A stretch of DNA of 64,000 bases from Escherichia coli (GTDB lineage Bacteria > Pseudomonadota > Gammaproteobacteria > Enterobacterales > Enterobacteriaceae), in the NCBI RefSeq assembly GCF_003334315.1, contig NZ_QOWR01000014.1. One strand, written 5' to 3'. The notes under the pieces are model-generated. The model had not been told where the DNA came from. It was given only the letters and a program-made list of their open reading frames with translations, and made no database searches. This document shows, piece by piece, positions 9,368-46,514 of the stretch. The position numbers were made by a program, and so were the translations under genes. The stretch's first letter is position 1; each line of letters begins with the position of its first letter.

Positions 9368-11758
9368 ATGGCAATTAACAATACAGGCTCGCGACGATTA
9401 CTCGTCACGCTAACAGCCCTTTTTGCAGCGCTTTGCGGGCTGTATCTACTCATTGGCGGAGGCTGGCTGGTCGCGATTGGCGGCTCCTGGTACTACCCTA
9501 TCGCTGGCCTTGTGATGCTCGGCGTCGCCTGGATGCTGTGGCGCAGTAAACGCGCCGCGCTTTGGCTATACGCAGCCCTGCTGCTCGGCACCATGATTTG
9601 GGGCGTCTGGGAAGTTGGTTTCGACTTCTGGGCGCTGACTCCGCGCAGCGACATTCTGGTCTTCTTCGGCATCTGGCTGATCCTGCCGTTTGTCTGGCGT
9701 CGCCTGGTCATTCCTGCCAGCGGCGCAGTTGCCGCACTGGTGGTCGCACTGCTGATTAGCGGTGGTATCCTGACCTGGGCCGGATTTAACGATCCGCAGG
9801 AGATCAACGGCACCTTAAGCGCCGATGCCACACCTGCTGAAGCTATCTCCCCCGTAGCCGATCAGGACTGGCCTGCCTATGGTCGTAATCAGGAAGGTCA
9901 ACGCTTTTCGCCGCTGAAACAAATTAACGCCGATAACGTCCATAATCTGAAAGAAGCCTGGGTGTTCCGTACTGGCGATGTGAAGCAGCCGAACGATCCG
10001 GGTGAAATCACCAATGAAGTGACGCCGATTAAAGTGGGCGACACCCTTTACCTGTGTACCGCTCACCAGCGCCTGTTTGCGCTTGATGCCGCCAGCGGCA
10101 AAGAGAAATGGCATTACGATCCTGAGCTGAAAACCAACGAGTCTTTCCAGCACGTAACCTGCCGTGGTGTCTCTTATCATGAAGCCAAAGCAGAAACCGC
10201 TTCGCCGGAAGTGATGGCGGATTGCCCGCGTCGTATCATTCTTCCGGTCAATGATGGTCGACTGATTGCGATTAACGCTGAAAACGGCAAACTGTGCGAA
10301 ACCTTCGCCAATAAAGGCGTGCTCAATCTGCAAAGCAATATGCCAGACACCAAACCGGGTCTGTATGAACCGACTTCGCCACCGATTATCACCGATAAAA
10401 CCATCGTGATGGCCGGTTCAGTTACCGATAACTTCTCAACCCGCGAAACGTCTGGCGTGATCCGTGGTTTTGATGTCAACACCGGGGAGCTGCTGTGGGC
10501 TTTTGATCCCGGCGCGAAAGATCCGAACGCAATCCCGTCTGACGAACACACCTTTACCTTTAACTCGCCAAACTCCTGGGCACCAGCGGCCTATGACGCG
10601 AAGCTGGATCTGGTCTATCTGCCGATGGGCGTGACCACGCCGGATATCTGGGGCGGTAACCGCACACCGGAACAGGAACGTTATGCCAGCTCGATTCTGG
10701 CGCTGAATGCCACTACCGGGAAACTGGCGTGGAGCTACCAGACCGTTCACCACGACCTGTGGGACATGGATCTTCCGGCACAGCCGACGCTGGCGGACAT
10801 CACCGTTAATGGTCAGAAAGTGCCAGTTATTTACGCTCCGGCGAAAACCGGCAACATTTTTGTGCTCGATCGTCGTAATGGCGAACTGGTGGTTCCGGCA
10901 CCGGAAAAACCGGTTCCCCAAGGTGCAGCGAAAGGCGATTACGTAACCCCAACTCAACCGTTTTCTGAACTGAGCTTCCGTCCGACGAAAGATTTGAGCG
11001 GTGCGGATATGTGGGGAGCCACCATGTTTGACCAACTGGTGTGCCGCGTGATGTTCCACCAGATGCGCTATGAAGGCATTTTCACCCCGCCATCTGAACA
11101 GGGTACGCTGGTCTTCCCGGGTAACCTGGGGATGTTCGAATGGGGCGGGATTTCCGTTGATCCAAATCGTGAAGTGGCGATTGCCAACCCAATGGCACTG
11201 CCGTTTGTTTCGAAACTGATCCCGCGTGGTCCTGGCAACCCGATGGAGCAGCCGAAAGATGCCAAAGGCACGGGTACGGAATCCGGCATTCAGCCACAGT
11301 ACGGTGTACCGTATGGTGTCACGCTCAACCCGTTCCTCTCACCATTTGGTCTGCCATGTAAACAGCCAGCATGGGGTTATATCTCGGCGCTGGATCTGAA
11401 AACTAATGAAGTGGTGTGGAAGAAACGTATTGGTACGCCGCAGGACAGTATGCCGTTCCCGATGCCGGTTCCGGTGCCGTTCAATATGGGTATGCCGATG
11501 CTGGGCGGGCCAATCTCCACGGCGGGTAACGTGCTGTTTATCGCCGCTACGGCAGATAACTACCTGCGCGCTTACAACATGAGCAACGGTGAAAAACTGT
11601 GGCAGGGTCGTTTACCAGCGGGTGGTCAGGCTACGCCAATGACCTATGAAGTGAATGGTAAGCAGTATGTGGTGATCTCCGCAGGCGGTCACGGTTCATT
11701 TGGTACGAAGATGGGCGACTATATTGTGGCTTATGCGCTGCCGGATGATGTGAAGTAA
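9368..11758 (+). CDS. gcd: PQQ-dependent quinoprotein glucose dehydrogenase
   Basis: 796-aa protein from ATG 9368 (MAINNTGSRRLLV...), N-terminal membrane segments; track ORF is extended by 6 codons. Confidence 0.96.
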   Translation: MAINNTGSRRLLVTLTALFAALCGLYLLIGGGWLVAIGGSWYYPIAGLVMLGVAWMLWRSKRAALWLYAALLLGTMIWGVWEVGFDFWALTPRSDILVFFGIWLILPFVWRRLVIPASGAVAALVVALLISGGILTWAGFNDPQEINGTLSADATPAEAISPVADQDWPAYGRNQEGQRFSPLKQINADNVHNLKEAWVFRTGDVKQPNDPGEITNEVTPIKVGDTLYLCTAHQRLFALDAASGKEKWHYDPELKTNESFQHVTCRGVSYHEAKAETASPEVMADCPRRIILPVNDGRLIAINAENGKLCETFANKGVLNLQSNMPDTKPGLYEPTSPPIITDKTIVMAGSVTDNFSTRETSGVIRGFDVNTGELLWAFDPGAKDPNAIPSDEHTFTFNSPNSWAPAAYDAKLDLVYLPMGVTTPDIWGGNRTPEQERYASSILALNATTGKLAWSYQTVHHDLWDMDLPAQPTLADITVNGQKVPVIYAPAKTGNIFVLDRRNGELVVPAPEKPVPQGAAKGDYVTPTQPFSELSFRPTKDLSGADMWGATMFDQLVCRVMFHQMRYEGIFTPPSEQGTLVFPGNLGMFEWGGISVDPNREVAIANPMALPFVSKLIPRGPGNPMEQPKDAKGTGTESGIQPQYGVPYGVTLNPFLSPFGLPCKQPAWGYISALDLKTNEVVWKKRIGTPQDSMPFPMPVPVPFNMGMPMLGGPISTAGNVLFIAATADNYLRAYNMSNGEKLWQGRLPAGGQATPMTYEVNGKQYVVISAGGHGSFGTKMGDYIVAYALPDDVK

Positions 11759-11796
11759 GACTTGCTCAGATTGCTGACAACGTGCGCGTTGTTCAT

Positions 11797-11895
11797 GCCG
11801 GATGCGGCGTGAACGCCTTATCCAGCCTACAAAATTGTGCAAAATCAATGGATTGCACAGCTAGCGTAGGCCTGATAAGCGTAGCGCATCAGGCA
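11797..11895. repeat. REP/BIME palindromic elements (two copies) between gcd and cueO
   Basis: gccggatgcggcgtgaacgccttatcc...ctac and taggcctgataagcgtagcgcatcaggc motifs. Confidence 0.8.
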
Positions 11896-11959
11896 GATTT
11901 GCGTTTGTCATCAGTTTAATGCCCGGAGAGATCCGGGCATATTTCCGAATACGGTCTTT

Positions 11960-13510
11960 TTATACCGTAAACCCTAACATCATCCCCGTATCTTCATGCT
12001 CCAGCAGATGGCAGTGCGCCATATAAGCATGTTCTTTCGGTGCATCGTGATTAAACTTCACCAGCACTTCGCTGACATTACCTTCTACCTTAACGGTATC
12101 TTTCCAGCCCGCGCGATGAGCCGCTGGCGGTTTGCCATTTTCTGACAAGATACGGAACTGCGTGCCGTGGATATGGAACGGATGCAGCATCATGTCGCCC
12201 ACGCCAGAGATAACCCAACGTTCGTATTGCCCTTTCGCCGCCGCAAACATCGGCTTGTTCATATCAAACGCCTGACCGTTGATTTTGTTGGCATGGTGGA
12301 AATCGAACTTCCCGCCGTGGTTCATATGATTCATATTGCCGTGCCCCATATGGCCCATCATCTGGCTGTGATCCATCCCGGCCATCGCCTGATCGCCATA
12401 TTTCTCCATTAGCATCTGCATCCCCATCATATCGAGCATCGGGTCCATAGAGAGTTGCAGCTTGCGTACCGTCAGCCCTTCCAGCGAAGGTAACGCAGGC
12501 AGGCTACTTAATGTGTCTGGCAAAGCACCGGAGGCACTAATAGCAATCGGCTGAATCCGCATTACCGGATGAGGCTTATCAAACGGCGCAATCGCCATCC
12601 CCATCTGGCTGACCGGCAGCGTCACCAGGTCAAAGGGTTTGTTATCGTTAACCTCCACCAGCACTTCAAAACGCTCGCCCATCAGCACCGGCAGTTCGCT
12701 CACCTTCACTGGTTCAGGTAGCAGACCACCGTCGCTGGCAATCACATACAGCGGGCGATTGTCGCTGGTGGCGAAATTGAGCGAGCGGGCATTACAGCCA
12801 TTGAGCAAACGCAGGCGCAGCCAACCACGCGGGGCAGCGTGTTGTGGGTAGATTGCACCGTTGGTCAGCAGCGTATCGCCAAACCAGCCCACGGCGGCGG
12901 TCATCACATCCAGTTGATAATCAATCTGCCCATCAGCGTTAAATTTTTTATCCTGAACAATCACCGGAACATCATCGATACCCCACTGTTTTGGCAGCAT
13001 TAATTTCAGGATCTCGTCATCTTCAATTACCACCAGCCCAGCCAACCCCATCGCCACCTGTCGCCCGGTCTTGCCATGTTGATGTGGATGGAACCAGCAA
13101 GTAGCGGCAGGTTGATCAACGTTCAACGTCACCGAGCGCTTGCCACCTGGCAGAATAATTCCCTGCGGGCCGCCGTCGACTTCACCCGGTACTTCCAGCC
13201 CGTGCCAGTGCAACGTCGTCTCTTCCGTCAGTTGGTTATAGATATCAACCGTTACCGCTTTGCCGCGCTGTAATTTCACCGCCGGCCCCAGCAGATTGCC
13301 GTTATAGCCCCAGGTAGTTGCAGTTTTCTCGCCAAAGGTAGACTGACCTGCGCCAATAGTTAACTGAATGCGATTACGGGCATCGGTCGTGAGCAAATCA
13401 GGGATCGGTAACGTTGGGCGTTCCGCCGCAAAGACTGCGCGGCTCCACAGCGGCAAGGCTGAAGCCACACCCAGCGCGACGGAATATTTTAAGAAATCAC
13501 GACGTTGCAT
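11960..13510 (-). CDS. cueO: multicopper oxidase (cuprous oxidase)
   Basis: 516-aa protein from ATG 13510; Tat signal MQRRDFLK and Met-rich segment ([14 protein letters not shown]...[14 protein letters not shown]). Confidence 0.96.
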
Positions 13511-19331: not shown

Positions 19332-21089
19332 ATGAAAATGACTTTGCCGTTTAAACCCCATGTGCTGGCGCTAATTTGCAGTGCCGGGCTTTGTGCCGCC
19401 TCTACCGGGCTATATATAAAAAGCCGCACAGTGGAAGCGCCTGTGGAACCGCAATCGACACAACAGACTGCGCCTGACATCACCGCAGTTACGCTTCCTG
19501 CAACGGTTTCCGCACCGCCCGTAACGCCCGCCGTCGTCAAATCCGCATTCAGCACTGCACAAATCGATCAATGGGTTGCGCCTGTCGCGCTGTACCCCGA
19601 TTCTCTGCTTTCACAAGTGTTAATGGCATCAACCTATCCGGCAAACGTTGCTCAAGCAGTGCAATGGTCGCACGATAATCCACTTAAACAAGGCGATGCT
19701 GCTATTCAGGCGGTATCTGACCAGCCGTGGGACGCCAGCGTTAAATCACTGGTGGCCTTTCCACAATTGATGGCATTGATGGGCGAAAACCCGCAATGGG
19801 TGCAAAACCTGGGCGATGCTTTTCTGGCGCAGCCGCAGGACGTGATGGACTCGGTACAGCGATTGCGGCAACTGGCGCAACAAACCGGTTCGCTGAAGTC
19901 ATCAACCGAACAAAAAGTTATTACCACAACGAAGAAAGCTGTACCGGTAAAACAGACAGTCACGGCACCCGTCATACCATCCAATACCGTTTTAACTGCC
20001 AGCCCCGTCATTACAGAGCCTGCAACAACCGTCATTTCCATTGAGCCCGCCAATCCTGATGTGGTCTATATTCCCAACTACAACCCAACCGTGGTTTACG
20101 GGAACTGGGCCAATACTGCGTATCCGCCGGTTTATCTGCCACCACCAGCCGGAGAACCGTTTATTGACAGCTTTGTGCGCGGATTCGGCTATAGCATGGG
20201 TGTTGCTACCACGTACGCACTATTCAGCAGCATCGACTGGGATGACGACGATCATGACCATCATCATCATGACGATGATGATTATCATCACCACGATGGC
20301 GGTCATCGTGACGGTAATGGCTGGCAACACAACGGCGACAACATCAATATCGACGTCAACAATTTCAACCGTATCACCGGTGAGCATCTTACTGATAAGA
20401 ATATGGCATGGCGGCACAATCCAAACTACCGTAATGGTGTGCCCTATCATGATCAGGATATGGCAAAGCGGTTTCATCAAACCGATGTCAACGGCGGAAT
20501 GAGCGCCACGCAGCTACCTGCTCCAACACGCGACAGCCAGCGTCAGGCGGCAGCAAGTCAGTTTCAGCAACGAACACACGCCGCCCCCGTCATTACACGA
20601 GATACCCAACGTCAGGCAGCGGCACAGCGGTTTAATGAAGCTGAAAACTATGGGAGCTATGACGACTTCCGCGACTTCAGCCGTCGCCAACCACTGACCC
20701 AGCAACAAAAGGACGCCGCTCGTCAGCGTTATCAGTCGGCCTCGCCTGAGCAGCGCCAGGCAGTCCGCGAGAAAATGCAGACTAACCCACAGATCCAGCA
20801 GCGAAGAGACGCAGCGCGTGAGCGTATTCAGTCCGCCTCGCCTGAGCAGCGCCAGGTGTTTAAGGAAAAAGTACAGCAGCGCCCACTGAACCAACAGCAA
20901 CGTGATAACGCCCGCCAGCGTGTTCAATCAGCATCACCTGAACAACGTCAGGTTTTTCGGGAAAAAGTTCAGGAGAGCCGCCCACAACGTCTAAACGACA
21001 GTAACCATACTGTCAGGCTGAATAACGAGCAACGGTCAGCAGTACGCGAACGTCTCTCTGAGCGCGGAGCAAGGCGACAGGAAAGGTAA
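19332..21089 (+). CDS. yacH: DUF3300-family protein with His/Asp-rich tract and C-terminal tandem repeats
   Basis: 585-aa ORF; signal-like N-terminus; recognised as YacH. Confidence 0.88.
   Translation: MKMTLPFKPHVLALICSAGLCAASTGLYIKSRTVEAPVEPQSTQQTAPDITAVTLPATVSAPPVTPAVVKSAFSTAQIDQWVAPVALYPDSLLSQVLMASTYPANVAQAVQWSHDNPLKQGDAAIQAVSDQPWDASVKSLVAFPQLMALMGENPQWVQNLGDAFLAQPQDVMDSVQRLRQLAQQTGSLKSSTEQKVITTTKKAVPVKQTVTAPVIPSNTVLTASPVITEPATTVISIEPANPDVVYIPNYNPTVVYGNWANTAYPPVYLPPPAGEPFIDSFVRGFGYSMGVATTYALFSSIDWDDDDHDHHHHDDDDYHHHDGGHRDGNGWQHNGDNINIDVNNFNRITGEHLTDKNMAWRHNPNYRNGVPYHDQDMAKRFHQTDVNGGMSATQLPAPTRDSQRQAAASQFQQRTHAAPVITRDTQRQAAAQRFNEAENYGSYDDFRDFSRRQPLTQQQKDAARQRYQSASPEQRQAVREKMQTNPQIQQRRDAARERIQSASPEQRQVFKEKVQQRPLNQQQRDNARQRVQSASPEQRQVFREKVQESRPQRLNDSNHTVRLNNEQRSAVRERLSERGARRQER
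20691..20978 (+). repeat. three tandem 96-bp (32-aa) repeats inside yacH
   Basis: Units start at 20691, 20787 and 20883; each encodes ...ARQR.QSASPEQRQ..EK.Q...; units 1 and 2 share an identical gcctcgcctgagcagcgccagg core. Confidence 0.85.
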
Positions 21090-38649: not shown

Positions 38650-38847
38650 ATGTCAGAAACTATTACGGTGAATTGCCCAACCTGCGGGAAAACGGTGGTG
38701 TGGGGTGAAATCAGCCCGTTTCGGCCATTTTGCTCCAAACGTTGTCAGCTGATCGACCTCGGAGAATGGGCTGCTGAAGAAAAACGAATCCCCAGCAGTG
38801 GCGATCTTTCCGAAAGCGATGACTGGAGCGAAGAACCAAAGCAGTGA
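38650..38847 (+). CDS. yacG: DNA gyrase inhibitor YacG (zinc-finger)
   Basis: 65-aa ORF with CPTCGK...CSKRCQ zinc-ribbon motif. Confidence 0.94.
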
Positions 38848-38856
38848 CATTTGTCT

Positions 38857-39062
<206 letters not shown>

Positions 39063-39066
<4 letters not shown>

Positions 39067-39452
39067 AGACGTTTAAGCTTCGCAATTACCGGTTCATTGG
39101 CTGGCGGAAAATCATCGGCATTAAGACCGACCAGCGACATCCACTCACCGGGTTGCCCTTCTTTACCCCACGGCTCCCCTTCCCAGCGTTCGACCAGCCA
39201 AAACCACAGTGTTATATGCCTGTCCGGGAATTCATATTCCAGTTTTTCAAATAGCGAAAAATGTTGGGGGGTAATCCCGACTTCTTCCTGAAGTTCACGC
39301 ACCACCGCCTGTTCCGGCGTTTCACCCATTTCAATTTTACCGCCGGGAAACTCCAGTTTATTCGCCATGTGCGCATCTGCTGCGCGACGCGTTATAAAGA
39401 TTTCATTGTTCTCGTTGCGAATAATACCTACCGCAATTTGCAGCTTTTTCAT
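39063..39452 (-). CDS. mutT: 8-oxo-dGTP diphosphatase (Nudix)
   Basis: 129-aa ORF with Nudix box GKIEMGETPEQAVVRELQEEVGI. Confidence 0.96.
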
Positions 39453-39511
39453 TGTCTTAAACCTATAAAAAAGGCGCAGAATCCTGCGCCTTTTACTTCA
39501 ACAGTTAGCTT

Positions 39512-42217
39512 TTATTGCAGGCGGCCATGGCACTGCTTGTATTTTTTACCAGAACCGCACGGGCAAGGATCGTTACGTCCTACTTTGCGCTCTCCGGTTT
39601 GCGCCGCCAGTGCAGCTGCGGCTGCAGAGTCGTCATCCTGATGGCTAAGCTGCTGCATTTGCGCTAAACGCTCGGCTTCCATACGACGCTGTTGTTCCAG
39701 CTCCTCAACCTCTTCAGGCATACGTACCTGAACTTTGCTCAGCGTACTGATAACTTCATATTTCAACGACTCCAGCATCGCTGCAAACATGGAGAACGAT
39801 TCACGTTTGTATTCCTGCTTCGGATCTTTCTGTGCGTAGCCACGCAGGTGGATACCCTGACGCAGATAGTCCATCGCTGCCAGGTGCTCTTTCCACAGGG
39901 AGTCAAGCGTTTGCAGCATGACGCCTTTCTCGAAGTGACGCATCATCTCAGCACCAACCACTTCTTCTTTACGCTGATACACTTCGATGGACTGCGCCAG
40001 AATGCGCTCACGCAGCGTCTCTTCATGCAGTTCTGGTTCTTTATCCAGCCACTCGGCAATTGGCAAATCGAGGTCGAAATCGTTCTTCAGACGTTCCTGC
40101 AGCCCCGGAATATCCCACATTTCTTCCAGCGACTGTGGTGGAATGTAGGCATCAATGGTCGCTTTGAACACATCTTCACGAATGCTGTTAATGGTTTCGC
40201 TCACATCGCTGACATCCAACAGTTCGTTACGCTGGGAGTAAATGGCGCGACGCTGATCGTTAGCCACGTCATCATATTCCAGCAGTTGCTTACGAATGTC
40301 GAAGTTACGGCTTTCAACTTTACGCTGGGCGTTGGCAATCGCTTTAGTCACCCACGGGTGTTCAATGGCTTCGCCTGGCTTCATACCCAGTTTACGCATC
40401 ATGCCGGATACTCGGTCGGAAGCAAAAATACGCATCAGCGCATCTTCCATCGACAGGTAGAAACGGGAAGAACCAGCATCCCCCTGACGACCAGAACGAC
40501 CGCGCAACTGGTTATCGATACGACGGGATTCGTGACGCTCGGTACCGATGATATGCAGGCCACCTGCTTCCAGTACCGCATCGTGACGTACCTGCCAGTC
40601 GGCTTTAATTTTTTCAATTTGCTCTGCGGTCGGATTTTCCAGCGCGGCAACTTCTGCCTGCCAGCTACCACCGAGCACAATATCTGTACCACGACCCGCC
40701 ATATTGGTCGCGATAGTCACCGCAGCCGGATAACCTGCCTGAGCAACAATCGCCGCTTCGTTGGCGTGGAATTTGGCGTTCAGGACGTTGTGCTTAATAC
40801 CGGCTTTGGTCAGTTCGTTTGACACCAGCTCCGATTTTTCGATGGAGATAGTACCCACCAGCACCGGCTGGCCTTTCGCAGTACGTTCTTTGATATCTTC
40901 AATGATCGCCTGAATTTTTTCCGCTTCAGTCATGTAGACCAGGTCCGGCAGATCTTTACGAATCATTGGACGGTTGGTCGGAACAACGACGGTATCCAGC
41001 TTGTAGATTGAGCTAAATTCGAAAGCTTCGGTATCAGCAGTACCGGTCATCCCCGCCAGTTTTTCATACAGACGGAAGTAGTTCTGGAAGGTGATCGAAG
41101 CCAGCGTTTGGTTTTCGTTCTGGATCTGCACACCTTCTTTCGCTTCCACAGCCTGGTGCAGACCATCGGACCAGCGACGGCCCTGCATGGTACGACCGGT
41201 GTGTTCGTCAACGATGATAACTTCACCATCTTTAACGATGTAGTCGACGTCACGGGTAAACAGCGCATGAGCGCGCAGCGCCGCCGTTACGTGGTGCATC
41301 AGCATGATGTTGGCCGGAGAGTACAGAGACTCCCCTTCATCCATGATGCCCTCTTTCACCAGCAGTTCTTCAATCAGCACCAGACCACGTTCGGTCAGGT
41401 TCACCTGGCGAGATTTTTCGTCCACCGAGAAGTGGCCTTCGCCCTGGAAGGTTTCGGAGTCTTCTTTTTCCTGACGGATCAGGTGCGGAATAATTTTATT
41501 CACGCGTTTATACATTTCCGAGCTGTCTTCTGCCGGGCCGGAAATGATCAGCGGTGTACGCGCTTCATCGATCAGGATGGAGTCCACTTCGTCCACCAGC
41601 GCATAGTGCAGTTTACGCTGTACACGTTCTTCAGGGCTGAACGCCATGTTGTCGCGCAGGTAGTCAAAGCCGTATTCGTTGTTCGTACCGTAAGTGATGT
41701 CAGCTGCGTAAGCTTCGCGCTTTGCCGGTGCTGGCATGCCCGGCAGGTTGATACCGACAGTCAGGCCAAGGAATTCAAACAGCGGACGGTTGTTTTCGGC
41801 GTCACGTTGCGCCAGGTAGTCGTTGACGGTAACTACGTGCACGCCTTTACCGGTTAGTGCGTTCAGGTAAGCAGGCAGCGTTGCGGTCAGGGTTTTTCCT
41901 TCACCGGTACGCATTTCGGCGATGCAGCGTTCGTTAAGAACCATACCGCCGAGTAACTGAACGTCGAAGTGACGCATACCAAAGACGCGCTTACTTGCCT
42001 CACGTACCACGGCGAAAGCTTCCGGGATCAGATTTTCCAGCACTTCGCCTTTTTCCAGACGTGCACGAAACTCTGCGGTTTTCCCTTTCAGTTCTTCGTC
42101 GGAGAGTTTTTCCATCTCCGGTTCCATGGCATTGATGATGTTGACCACTTTGCGCATCCGGCGCAGGGTGCGATCGTTACGACTACCGAAAACTTTAGTT
42201 AACAATTTGATTAGCAT
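39512..42217 (-). CDS. secA: preprotein translocase ATPase SecA
   Basis: 901-aa ORF recognised as SecA; C-terminal zinc-binding [14 protein letters not shown]. Confidence 0.98.
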
Positions 42218-44039: not shown

Positions 44040-45191
44040 TTAATCAGCTTGCTTACGCAGGAATGCTGGGATATCCAGATAATCCGGCTCTTTCGCAGTT
44101 TGCGGCGCATTGTCATTCACGACTTTAGCAACCGGCTTCTGCTCCTGGGTCAGCGGAGCCATCCCATGCTGCTGGTAGCGATCCATCACTGGCTGCTGAA
44201 CCTGCTTATTGGTCACCAGAGTGATTTCAGGACGTTTGTCCATGCCGATACCTGTCGCAACAACGGTTACGCGCAGCTCGTCATTCATATCCGGGTCAAG
44301 AGAAGTACCGATAACCACAGTCGCGTTGTCGGAAGCAAATGCACGGATGGTGTTACCTACCGTTTCGAACTCATCCAGACGCAGGTCGAAGCCCGCCGTG
44401 ATGTTAACCAGCACGCCGCGCGCGCCAGACAGGTCGATATCTTCCAGCAGCGGAGAAGAGATAGCCATTTCAGCAGCTTCTTCCGCACGGTCTTCACCGC
44501 TCGCCACGCCAGAACCCATCATTGCGTAGCCCATCTCAGACATTACGGTGCGTACGTCTGCAAAGTCCACGTTCATCAAACCCGGACGAGTAATCAGTTC
44601 AGCGATACCTTGCACAGCGCCTTTCAGTACATCGTTCGCTGCGCCAAACGCATCCAGCAGGGAGATACCGCGGCCCAGAACTTTCAGCAGTTTGTCGTTC
44701 GGGATAGTGATCAGAGAGTCCACATGCTTGGACAGTTCAGTGATCCCCTGCTCCGCGAATGCCATACGCTTCTTGCCTTCAAAGTTGAAAGGCTTAGTGA
44801 CGACAGCAACGGTCAGGATACCCAAATCTTTTGCCACTTCAGCGACGACTGGTGCTGCACCTGTACCGGTACCACCACCCATACCCGCAGCAATAAAGAC
44901 CATGTCTGCACCTTCCAGCGCCGCACGCAATGCATCGCGATCCTCATCAGCCGCATTGCGGCCAACTTCTGGATTAGCGCCAGCGCCCAGTCCTTTGGTG
45001 ATACCGCTACCGATTTGAATCGTCTGTCCAACCGCTGTTTTACGCAGCGCTTGTGCATCGGTATTTACCGCGAAGAATTCAACACCTTCAATGCGCTCGC
45101 GCACCATGTGTTCAACAGCATTACCGCCGCCGCCGCCGACGCCGATGACTTTAATCACCGCGTCATTGGTAAGTTCCATTGGTTCAAACAT
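44040..45191 (-). CDS. ftsZ: cell division GTPase FtsZ
   Basis: 383-aa ORF, tubulin signature GGGTGTG. Confidence 0.98.
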
Positions 45192-45251
45192 AGTTTCTCT
45201 CCGATTTGTGCCTGTCGCCTGAGGCCGTAATCATCGTCGGCCTCATAAAAA

Positions 45252-46514
45252 TTAAAACTCTTTTCGCAGCCAACTATTGAGTCGCTTGATCCACGAGCCA
45301 ACTGATGCTGTAACACGTTTTTCTACTTCAGCTTCACCGTTAAGATGTGACTCTTTCCCATAGTGAAGCAATCCCACCGCCGTCGAATAATACGGCTCCT
45401 GAGCATAATCCGTTAAACCGGTAATGTTCAGCGGCGCGCCGATACGCACTTGCGTATGAAACACGCGCTGAGCACAGGCTGCAAGACCTTCGATCTGCGC
45501 TGCGCCACCGGTTAATACAATGCCTGCCGCCAGGTGATGTTTAACCCCTTGTTGGCGAAGCTTTTCCTGCAACTGCAATATCTCTTCGTTGACCAGGTTG
45601 AGCAGCTCGGTATAGCGCGGCTCGATCACCTCTGCCAGTGTCTGACGTTGCAGACTCCGTGGCGGACGACCACCTACGCTCGGCACTTCCACGCTCTCAT
45701 CTTTTCCAACGATGGAACCCAGCGCACAACCGTGGCGAACTTTAATCGCTTCGGCGTCGCTTGGCGGCGTGCCAAAGGCGTAAGCGATATCACTGGTCAC
45801 GACATTGCCAGCATAAGGAATTACCTTAGTGTGGCGCAATGCCCCACCGGTATAAACGGCGATATCCATTGTACCACCACCGATATCGACGACGCAGACA
45901 CCCAGTTCACGTTCATCTTCCGTCAATACCGAATAACTTGATGCCAGTCCGGCAAATATCAGTTGGTCAACTTTCAGCCCACAACGTTCAACCGCTTTGA
46001 CGATGTTTTTCGCCATATCGTTGTGACATGTGATCAGGTGCACTTTTGCCTGCATCCGCACGCCCGAAAGTCCTACCGGATTCTTGATCCCTTCCTGATA
46101 GTCAATCGCATACTCTTGCGGGATCACATGCAGCACACGATGCTCATCGCGCACACGCACCGATTTCGCGGTATGGACGACGTTTTCCACATCTTCTTGC
46201 GTTACTTCTTCTTCAGAAATAGGCACCATACCAATTTCATTCTGGCAGCTGATATGCTTACCAGAAAGCGCCAGATATACCGAAGAGATCTGACAATCTG
46301 CCATCAATTCTGCCTGGTCAATGGCGCGCTGTACGCACTTGACCACGGATTCGAGGTCGTTCACCCCGCCTTTATCCATACCACGCGACGGGCAGCTGCC
46401 CACGCCAATGATATTGACCATACCGTCGGGCAGAACTTCCCCTACTAAAGCGGCAACCTTCGCGGTACCAATCTCCAGTCCTACTACCAGTTTTCTGTCC
46501 GTCGCCTTGATCAT
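45252..46514 (-). CDS. ftsA: cell division protein FtsA
   Basis: 420-aa ORF recognised as FtsA. Confidence 0.97.

What the first reader, a model, noticed from the sequence alone, without database searches (positions are those of the whole stretch)
11797..11945. REP/BIME elements at convergent gene ends
Two REP copies between gcd and cueO and four between yacG and mutT (38857..39066, the last overlapping the mutT stop). These are typical extragenic palindromes and expected RAYT targets; they mark mRNA-stabilising or termination sites rather than anything novel.
Basis: established knowledge. Interest (0 to 1): 0.12.

Follow-up and report, generated by a model that had tools for sequence, protein, structure and literature searches.

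The report
Ordinary REP/BIME repeats between convergent genes
These are six copies of the well-known E. coli REP palindromic repeat, arranged as one BIME-1 and one tandem BIME-2 cluster between two pairs of convergent genes; they are ordinary, already described, and vary in copy number or are absent in other strains.

Summary
The window is E. coli, identical to K-12 MG1655 at both loci. It holds exactly six REP copies, all at the two reported sites.

**gcd–cueO.** A classical BIME-1: Y REP 11796-11830, L linker with an IHF consensus at 11843-11855, inverted Z1 REP 11865-11894. It has conserved flank motifs, so the unit spans about 11768-11915. A separate non-REP hairpin (11919-11940) is present in every allele.

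**yacG–mutT.** A BIME-2: two Z2–S–Y units with a 116-117 nt period, spanning 38866-39066. The last Y REP supplies the mutT stop codon (39063-39065).

**Strain variation (5,426 complete genomes).**
- About half carry the gcd–cueO BIME-1.
- About 44% have an empty site there, and about 6% keep only the flank.
- yacG–mutT carries 2, 4 or 6 REPs.
- REP-specific insertion sequences (IS621, IS1397) sit in these same REPs in some strains.

Mechanistic roles (3' hairpin protection of mRNA, IHF or gyrase binding, RAYT substrate) are inferred from published work, not shown here. No canonical terminator is predicted at either locus.

Verdict: real, already known, low interest.

The parts
11768..11795 (+). 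Left flank motif of the BIME-1 unit (TCAGATTGCTGACAACGTGCGCGTTGTTCA)
   Evidence: The same sequence precedes the Y REP at the yiiF-fdhE and sbp-pfkA BIME-1 loci. The 38-nt stretch 11759-11796 has a median of 7 places per E. coli genome.
11796..11830 (+). Y-type REP (CTAC tail at its 3' end on the + strand)
   Evidence: 33/35 to the y consensus. Hairpin -15.1 kcal/mol, z -3.2.
11831..11864 (+). Long L linker of BIME-1, with IHF consensus AATCAATGGATTG at 11843-11855
   Evidence: WATCAANNNNTTR match. Sub-threshold Rfam ES036/CssrF match covering the linker, 30.9 bits against a gathering score of 37.6. IHF binding itself was not tested.
11865..11894 (-). Z1-type REP, inverted relative to the Y copy; holds an exact IS621 target ATCAGGCCTAC (11866-11876)
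   Evidence: 30/30 to the z1 consensus. Hairpin z -3.5. IS621 is inserted at GCGTAG| in strain CEA224S.
11895..11915 (+). Right flank motif of the BIME-1 unit (..TTTGCGTTTGTCATCAGT), a partial inverted repeat of the left flank
   Evidence: Conserved at the yiiF-fdhE and sbp-pfkA BIME-1 copies.
11919..11940 (.). Non-REP hairpin ATGCCCGGA-GAGA-TCCGGGCAT shared by the convergent gcd and cueO 3' ends; not part of the repeat
   Evidence: Invariant in all six E. coli alleles, including the empty site where it lies 5 nt after the gcd stop. -17.4 kcal/mol, z -6.1. Not called as a canonical terminator.
38866..38903 (-). Z2-type REP (first BIME-2 unit); exact IS621 target at 38867-38877
   Evidence: 36/38 to the z2 consensus. 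Hairpin -21.3 kcal/mol, z -5.6. Target 11-mer found.
38904..38915 (+). Short S linker (ATCTTGTGCAAA)
   Evidence: 12 nt between the inverted Z2 and Y copies.
38916..38950 (+). Y-type REP (first BIME-2 unit)
   Evidence: 32/35. z -4.8. Together with the Z2 copy it matches Rfam naRNA4 at 78.4 bits, 38870-38947 on the minus strand.
38951..38984 (+). Inter-unit linker, locus-specific, with IHF consensus TATCAATGAGTTA at 38962-38974
   Evidence: Consensus match. Present in 1,868 of 5,426 genomes, 1-3 copies each. A different linker in 222 genomes also carries TATCAACATGTTA.
38985..39019 (-). Z2-type REP (second unit); its tail reads TTAG instead of GTAG
   Evidence: 35/35 to the z2 consensus core. 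z -4.4.
39020..39031 (+). Short S linker (ATCGTGTGCGAA)
39032..39066 (+). Y-type REP (second unit); its CCTAC tail contains the mutT stop codon (39063-39065, minus strand)
   Evidence: 31/35. mutT ORF 39063-39452 on the minus strand. Rfam naRNA4 77.8 bits for 38987-39063 on the minus strand.

Best explanation
**What they are.** Both sites are standard E. coli REP clusters.
- Locus 1 is a single BIME-1 (also called RIP/RIB): flank, Y, L linker with IHF site, inverted Z1, flank. It sits in the gcd 3' region, between the gcd stop and a hairpin shared with cueO.
- Locus 2 is a two-unit BIME-2, (Z2, short linker, Y) x2. It fills the whole 215-nt spacer between yacG and mutT.

**How they got there (inferred).** They are non-autonomous repeats thought to be spread and amplified through single-strand cleavage and rejoining by the REP-associated tyrosine transposase (TnpA_REP/RAYT), which is encoded elsewhere in the genome. 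They persist where insertion is harmless, namely the 3' ends of convergent genes.

**What they do (inferred from other loci).**
- Once transcribed, their stable hairpins are expected to block 3'-5' exonucleases and define or protect the 3' ends of the gcd, yacG and mutT transcripts.
- At the DNA level, the BIME-1 linker is a likely IHF site and the BIME-2 Y copies are likely gyrase sites.

**Shown versus inferred.** Shown here are sequence identity, architecture, hairpin stability, genomic dispersal, strain polymorphism, and use as IS targets. All protein binding, RNA stabilisation and RAYT action are inferred.
For: **Identity and architecture.**
- Near-perfect matches to the y, z1 and z2 consensus, with only six copies in the window. 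Enriched over shuffles.
- The architectures match the published definitions of BIME-1 (y+z1, long L linker with IHF site, single copy) and BIME-2 (y+z2, short linker, tandem copies that vary between strains) (PMC3333891).
- The BIME-1 unit with the same flanks recurs at yiiF-fdhE and sbp-pfkA.

**Structure and dispersal.**
- Strong folding of both spacers: z -5.2 and -5.5 at locus 1, z -6.8 at locus 2. Each REP also folds on its own.
- Rfam naRNA4 scores above its gathering score on both Z2-Y pairs.
- The query regions hit 10-53 places per genome in all 5,426 genomes.

**Polymorphism typical of mobile, dispensable repeats.**
- gcd-cueO: BIME-1 in 2,741 genomes (L linker in 2,705), a three-REP variant in 128, an empty site in 2,375, flank only in 327.
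- yacG-mutT: 2, 4 or 6 REPs in steps of 116-117 nt.

**Use as IS targets.**
- IS621 is inserted at its published target ATCAGGCCTAC in the Z1 copy.
- IS1397 is inserted in a Z2 loop with a GCCA duplication.

**Other species.** The same junction holds REP-type repeats in other Escherichia and in other genera.
Against: - Nothing here measures function.
- The simple terminator scan finds no stem plus T-run at either locus.
- The gcd-cueO element is absent from about half of E. coli genomes, so any role there is dispensable.
- One Z2 copy lacks the conserved GTAG (TTAG at 38984-38987). According to PMC3333891, GTAG is required for TnpA_REP binding.
- The RAYT gene is not among the genes annotated in the aligned MG1655 stretch, which corresponds to window 1-40,600.
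- IHF consensus matches are only weakly enriched in the window: 6 against 2.1 expected.
- Published gyrase-site supplements do not name these genes.
Confidence: 0.93

Rival explanations
1. Locus-specific regulator of MutT. The last Y REP overlaps the mutT stop, and in the mRNA its hairpin begins directly after the UAG. It therefore stalls terminating ribosomes and lowers MutT output through tmRNA. REP tail alleles also change the MutT C-terminus.
For: - The stem starts at the base after the UAG.
- REPs fewer than 16 nt from a stop codon are reported to down-regulate translation (Liang et al. 2015, as summarised in PMC12306157).
- O157, SF-173 and 20Ec-P-124 alleles read GTAT instead of GTAG, and MutT then ends ...KRVYVG (132 aa) at the REP's GGATAA.
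Against: - No expression data are available here, and the original paper was not held.
- The same overlap is present in every allele examined, so it may simply be tolerated.
- This K-12 Y copy has a weakened stem (-13.1 kcal/mol).
Confidence: 0.2
2. Purely selfish or neutral passengers, with no effect on the neighbouring genes or on the chromosome at these two sites.
For: - Presence/absence and copy-number polymorphism occurs without any change in the flanking genes.
- IS insertions into these REPs are tolerated.
- Unrelated repeat families occupy the same junction in other genera.
Against: - At yacG-mutT the REP hairpins are the only strong structures in the spacer. They must therefore shape the transcript 3' ends in some way.
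- An IHF consensus is retained in two otherwise different inter-unit linkers.
Confidence: 0.3
3. Genes for nucleoid-associated noncoding RNAs (naRNA4-like) that, together with HU, bridge cruciform DNA.
For: - Both Z2-Y pairs score 78.4 and 77.8 bits against Rfam RF02564, whose gathering score is 59.5.
- The matched strand is the mutT sense strand, so read-through from mutT would produce such an RNA.
- naRNA4 needs two hairpins, Y and Z2 (PMC4550694).
Against: - The Rfam model is built on a Y-Z2 BIME-2 unit, so any BIME-2 will match it.
- No promoter-like site is found in the spacer.
- The experiments concern REP325 at yjdM-yjdN, not this locus.
- Locus 1 scores only 34.8 bits.
Confidence: 0.05
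4. Ordinary gene-specific intrinsic terminators or chance palindromes, not members of a repeat family.
For: Their position at the 3' ends of convergent genes and their strong hairpins would also suit terminators.
Against: - They are near-identical to the REP consensus and recur tens of times per genome.
- No T-run terminators are called.
- The only locus-specific hairpin is 11919-11940, which lies outside the REPs.
Confidence: 0.01

Closest known systems
BIME-1 (also called RIP or RIB: REP pair with an IHF site)
   Same: Y and Z1 REPs in inverted orientation around a 34-nt L linker carrying an IHF consensus. A single unit, at the 3' end of a transcription unit. The same flanks occur at other BIME-1 loci.
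   Different: Nothing essential. This copy's Y tail reads CCAGCCTAC rather than CCGGCCTAC. Its L linker has an exact WATCAA core, where other copies read ATTCAA.
BIME-2 (tandem Y/Z2 clusters; gyrase sites)
   Same: Z2 and Y copies separated by a 12-nt short linker, repeated in tandem with a 116-117 nt period. Unit number varies between strains.
   Different: The inter-unit linker is specific to this locus and carries an IHF-like consensus in the same register as a BIME-1 L linker. It could therefore also be filed as an 'atypical BIME'. Gyrase cleavage here is undocumented in the sources read.
REP325 / naRNA4 (Rfam RF02564)
   Same: Same Y-linker-Z2 unit, scoring above the Rfam gathering threshold.
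   Different: Two units rather than six, at a different locus, with no evidence of a processed RNA or HU binding.
REPtron / TnpA_REP (RAYT) substrates
   Same: The REPs carry the GTAG/CTAC tetranucleotide and stem mismatches that TnpA_REP needs in vitro.
   Different: The enzyme gene is not among the genes annotated in the aligned MG1655 stretch. One Z2 copy has TTAG. No cleavage data exist for these copies.

Membership tests
E. coli REP / palindromic unit (y, z1, z2) | 30-40 nt imperfect palindrome matching one of the three consensus types | tested here: met
   Six copies at 31/35 to 35/35 and 30/30 identity. Each folds as a hairpin, z -3.2 to -5.6.
E. coli REP / palindromic unit (y, z1, z2) | Conserved GTAG (CTAC) tetranucleotide at the foot of the stem | tested here: met
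   Present in five of six copies. The Z2 copy at 38985-39019 has TTAG.
E. coli REP / palindromic unit (y, z1, z2) | Many dispersed copies per genome, in intergenic DNA | tested here: met
   10-53 places per genome with the locus 1 query and 4-35 with the locus 2 query, in all 5,426 genomes. Both sites are intergenic. The last copy overlaps mutT by 4 nt.
E. coli REP / palindromic unit (y, z1, z2) | Bound and cleaved by TnpA_REP (RAYT) as single-stranded DNA | not testable with these tools
   Known only from in vitro work on other BIMEs (PMC3333891).
BIME-1 | One y and one z1 REP in inverted orientation | tested here: met
   Y 11796-11830 (+) and Z1 11865-11894 (-).
BIME-1 | Long conserved L linker, often with an IHF site | tested here: met
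   34-nt linker with AATCAATGGATTG. Rfam ES036 match over the linker, 30.9 bits, E 1.8e-4, below the gathering score. Similar linkers occur at two other loci. Actual IHF binding was not tested.
BIME-1 | Occurs as a single unit at a locus | tested here: met
   One unit in the window and in K-12. By contrast, Escherichia sp. MOD1-EC7003 has about 8 tandem units at the same site.
BIME-2 | y and z2 REPs separated by a short linker | tested here: met
   Z2-12 nt-Y, twice.
BIME-2 | Tandem units whose number varies between strains | tested here: met
   One unit in W, O157 and SF-173, two units in K-12 and the window, three units in BY63. The K-12-type inter-unit linker is present 1-3 times in 1,868 genomes.
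BIME-2 | Preferential DNA gyrase binding and cleavage | not testable with these tools
   Reported for a subset of BIME-2 elements (PMC6379681). The held supplements do not mention mutT or yacG.
naRNA4 (Rfam RF02564) | Covariance-model score at or above the gathering score | tested here: met
   78.4 and 77.8 bits against 59.5 at locus 2. Locus 1 reaches only 34.8 bits.
naRNA4 (Rfam RF02564) | Expressed RNA that binds HU and condenses DNA | not testable with these tools
   Shown only for REP325 (PMC4550694).
REP translational down-regulators (Liang, Rudd and Deutscher 2015) | REP lies fewer than 16 nt downstream of the stop codon | tested here: met
   Met for mutT, where the REP overlaps the stop codon. 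Not met for gcd (37-nt gap) or yacG (18-nt gap). The criterion is taken from PMC12306157.
REP translational down-regulators (Liang, Rudd and Deutscher 2015) | tmRNA-dependent reduction of protein output | not testable with these tools
   Needs reporter assays.
Intrinsic (Rho-independent) terminator | G+C-rich stem followed by a T run | tested here: not met
   No terminator-like site in 11650-12050 or 38750-39150 on either strand.
IS621 natural target | Exact ATCAGGCCTAC with a CT core | tested here: met
   Two exact sites, 11866-11876 and 38867-38877 on the minus strand (target from PMC11208160). A natural IS621 insertion at the first site occurs in strain CEA224S.

The most novel reading that the evidence does not exclude
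The REP that overlaps the mutT stop codon may be more than a tolerated passenger. It may be a tuning device for the antimutator MutT. Its hairpin starts immediately after the UAG, which is the position class reported to stall terminating ribosomes. A natural GTAG-to-GTAT variant of the same REP adds three residues to MutT (129 to 132 aa) in O157, SF-173 and 20Ec-P-124. REP sequence drift could therefore alter MutT level or stability, and hence the A:T-to-C:G mutation rate, between E. coli strains.
Probability: 0.1. Interest if true: 0.35.

Novelty: already known. Interest (0 to 1): 0.07.

Why it matters
It matters little beyond correct annotation. REP/BIME elements have been catalogued in E. 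coli K-12 for decades, and these two clusters fit the definitions.

The follow-up gives a clean, quantified illustration of REP dynamics at two fixed loci:
- presence and absence, a likely secondary deletion, and tandem gain or loss of units;
- capture of a stop codon by a REP;
- natural IS621 and IS1397 insertions into the same REPs.

This could serve as a reference case for REP turnover or for natural bridge-recombinase target sites.

Tried and rejected
- **RefSeq annotation.** The NC_000913.3 annotation lists no repeat features at either locus, so the K-12 REP numbering could not be recovered.
- **Terminator and promoter scans.** Nothing was found at either locus. The idea that the REPs are canonical terminators was dropped.
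- **Rfam at locus 1.** Only sub-threshold matches appeared (naRNA4 34.8 bits, ES036 30.9 bits). The remaining hits (miRNA, snoRNA and similar) are noise.
- **BLAST with the L linker alone.** It found only this locus, one place per genome, so dispersal of the L motif could not be shown that way.
- **Literature.** Liang et al. 2015 is not held. The IHF ChIP-seq paper has no held supplements and does not name these genes. Another IHF genome-wide paper does not mention them. The gyrase Topo-seq supplements do not name them either.
- **Technical failures.** A fuzzy-regex scan of the whole window timed out and was replaced by blastn-short. NCBIfam gave no family for the three ORFs in the E. whittamii insert.
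- **Strain identity.** I first assumed the window was MG1655 itself. It is only 99.2-99.5% identical over 40 kb, although it is identical at both loci.

Full report
**Source of the window.** The window is Escherichia coli in reverse orientation relative to K-12 MG1655. NC_000913.3 138300-139200 and 110900-112000 match the window exactly as reverse complements, at 11393-12293 and from 38496. Over 40 kb the identity is only 99.2-99.5%, with a 96-nt difference inside yacH. The strain is therefore a close relative rather than MG1655 itself. RefSeq annotation and ORF listing place the first site between gcd (+, stop 11756-11758) and cueO (-, stop 11960-11962). They place the second between yacG (+, 38650-38847) and mutT (-, 39063-39452). 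Both gene pairs are convergent.

- Y 11796-11830 (33/35)
- Z1 11865-11894 (30/30, inverted)
- Z2 38866-38903 (36/38, inverted)
- Y 38916-38950 (32/35)
- Z2 38985-39019 (35/35, inverted)
- Y 39032-39066 (31/35)

A blastn-short scan of the whole window finds no further copy. The REP tail motif occurs 11 times against 1.6 expected, and no shuffle reaches that number. Each copy folds into the expected imperfect hairpin, with z from -3.2 to -5.6. Both spacers fold far better than shuffles, with z of -5.2 and -5.5 at locus 1 and -6.8 at locus 2.

**Anatomy of locus 1.** The two REPs face each other across a 34-nt linker. The linker carries an exact IHF consensus, AATCAATGGATTG, at 11843-11855. This is the definition of a BIME-1: y plus z1, a long L linker that often carries an IHF site, and a single copy (PMC3333891). 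Rfam's ES036/CssrF family aligns to the linker below threshold (30.9 bits). This indicates kinship with other L linkers.

The repeated unit is larger than the two REPs. The 38 nt left of the Y copy occur at a median of seven places per genome. At two of those places (yiiF-fdhE and sbp-pfkA) the same left flank, Y, L, Z1 and right flank are found in the same order. The unit therefore spans about 11768-11915.

It is invariant in all alleles, including those without any REP. It is the strongest local structure, with z -6.1. It lacks a proper T run and is not called as a terminator.

**Anatomy of locus 2.** The 215-nt spacer is filled by two direct repeats with a 116-117 nt period. Each repeat is an inverted Z2, a 12-nt short linker and a Y copy. 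That is a BIME-2. Both units exceed the gathering score of Rfam naRNA4 (78.4 and 77.8 bits against 59.5). That model is built on the Y-Z2 unit of REP325. This confirms the unit type and says nothing about function.

The 34-nt linker between the units is specific to this locus, with 1-3 copies per genome in 1,868 genomes. It contains another IHF consensus at 38962-38974. A different linker, found in 222 genomes, also holds one (TATCAACATGTTA). The second Z2 copy has TTAG in place of GTAG.

Counts are from 5,426 complete E. coli genomes.

At gcd-cueO (sample sequences):

| Allele | Genomes |
|---|---|
| BIME-1 allele | 2,741 (its L linker in 2,705) |
| Variant with the flank and Y copy duplicated (three REPs) | 128 |
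| Empty site: gcd stop, then CCATA, then the hairpin | 2,375 |
| Left flank kept, REPs missing (Nissle 1917, ATCC 25922, clone D i14) | 327 |

The flank-only allele reads ...TTGTTCATGCC|CGGAGAG. It is what a deletion between the two ATGCC repeats bordering the element would leave. I therefore read it as a secondary loss; this is an inference.

At yacG-mutT:
- Strains carry one unit (W, O157:H7, SF-173), two units (K-12) or three units (BY63, 331-nt spacer).
- In O157, SF-173 and 20Ec-P-124 the REP foot reads GTAT instead of GTAG.
- mutT then runs on to the REP's GGATAA, giving ...KRVYVG (132 aa) instead of ...KRL (129 aa).

**REP-specific insertion sequences at these loci.**
- In strain CEA224S an IS621 element interrupts the Z1 copy at GCGTAG|. 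This is the CT core of the published natural target ATCAGGCCTAC. The window holds that 11-mer exactly at 11866-11876 and 38867-38877.
- The far end of that IS621 is itself followed by an IS3-family element.
- In UPEC 26-1 an IS1397 sits in the loop of the Z2 copy at yacG-mutT, with a GCCA duplication. This fits its known specificity for palindromic units.

**Other species.** A degenerate pattern for the Gcd C-terminus retrieved 15 loci.
- A divergent E. coli lineage carries a diverged BIME-1 at the same place.
- Escherichia sp. MOD1-EC7003 carries about eight tandem BIME-1 units with a 107-nt period.
- E. whittamii has a decayed BIME-1 inside a 1.5-kb insert.
- Silvania and Lelliottia carry REP-like palindromes of a different sequence.
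- Pseudocitrobacter, Yokenella and two unnamed Enterobacteriaceae carry a different palindromic repeat (CCCTCTCCC..GGGAGAGGG..GGGTGAGGG).
- Trabulsiella has only a hairpin with a T run.

This convergent junction is thus repeatedly colonised by small palindromic repeats. The direction of change for the E. coli empty allele (ancestral or deleted) remains open.

**How it most likely works.**

Shown here: identity, architecture, hairpin stability, dispersal, polymorphism, and use as IS targets.

Inferred from published work on other copies:
- Spread and tandem amplification through TnpA_REP acting on single-stranded REPs, guided by GTAG.
- Protection of upstream mRNA 3' ends by the hairpins.
- IHF binding to the L linker.
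- Gyrase cleavage preferentially in the Y copies of BIME-2.

The gcd-cueO unit lies between the gcd stop and the conserved hairpin. It would therefore be part of the gcd 3' untranslated region. Its absence from half of the species shows it is dispensable there. At yacG-mutT the REP hairpins are the only strong structures between the two genes, so they probably define the transcript ends.

The mutT case also meets the positional criterion for translational down-regulation (a REP fewer than 16 nt after the stop codon). gcd (37 nt) and yacG (18 nt) do not. This remains untested.

**Verdict.** This is a correct observation of ordinary, long-known elements. [quoted passage not shown]

Noticed in passing
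L008 (NZ_CP166080.1, strain CEA224S) 860-1470; L031 300-620; corresponds to window 11865-11870: An IS621 (IS110 family, the bridge-RNA recombinase element) is inserted in the Z1 REP of the gcd-cueO BIME-1 at GCGTAG|, the CT core of its published target. Its other end abuts an IS3-family element, so the locus is a nested IS site in this strain.
   Followed up: partly
L014 (NZ_CP016497.1, UPEC 26-1) 1060-2505; corresponds to window about 38885-38890: IS1397 (IS3 family, frameshifted transposase) is inserted in the loop of the Z2 REP at yacG-mutT. GCCA is duplicated on both sides.
   Followed up: partly
window 39063-39075; L010, L011, L012: The MutT C-terminus depends on the REP allele. It is ...AKLKRL (129 aa, stop TAG in the REP GTAG) in the window, K-12 and W. 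It is ...AKLKRVYVG (132 aa, stop TAA in the REP GGATAA) in O157:H7, SF-173 and 20Ec-P-124.
   Followed up: partly
L025 (Escherichia sp. MOD1-EC7003) 2677-3524: About eight tandem BIME-1-like units (Y-L-Z1, 107-nt period) lie between gcd and cueO. BIME-1 is usually described as single-copy.
   Followed up: partly
L016, L018, L022, L024, L027, L030 (Pseudocitrobacter, Yokenella, unnamed Enterobacteriaceae), just after the gcd stop: The same gcd-cueO junction holds a different G+C-rich palindromic repeat (CCCTCTCCC..GGGAGAGGG..GGGTGAGGG) instead of REPs. Silvania and Lelliottia (L020, L021, L029) hold REP-like palindromes of a different sequence (e.g. GCCGGGTGGCGG...CCGACCTAC in L020).
   Followed up: no
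L026 (E. whittamii) 2880-4435: A 1.5-kb insert lies between gcd and cueO. It changes the last codons of gcd. It contains a decayed BIME-1 (about 3600-3730) and a 172-aa ORF (3739-4257, minus strand) with no NCBIfam match.
   Followed up: partly
window 20691-20900: A 96-nt in-frame tandem repeat inside yacH has 2.2 copies here. The window is 96 nt shorter than MG1655 at this point, i.e. about one unit fewer. Overall the window is only 99.2-99.5% identical to MG1655.
   Followed up: partly
window 45183-45272 (minus strand): There is a full-length Rfam match to PssrA, described as a plasmid-encoded Shigella sRNA (105.5 bits). It spans the ftsA 3' end, the ftsA-ftsZ spacer and the first codons of ftsZ (FtsZ 44040-45191, FtsA 45252-46514, both on the minus strand).
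   Followed up: partly
window 27482-27595 (+) and 39467-39536 (-): Rfam matches above the gathering score to tp2 and to STnc40. STnc40 lies just upstream of mutT.
   Followed up: no
window 38852-38861: TGTCTGATGC, 5 nt after the yacG stop, resembles a REP half-site. It is 90% complementary to 38895-38904 and 39011-39020. It may be a remnant of a further REP copy.
   Followed up: no
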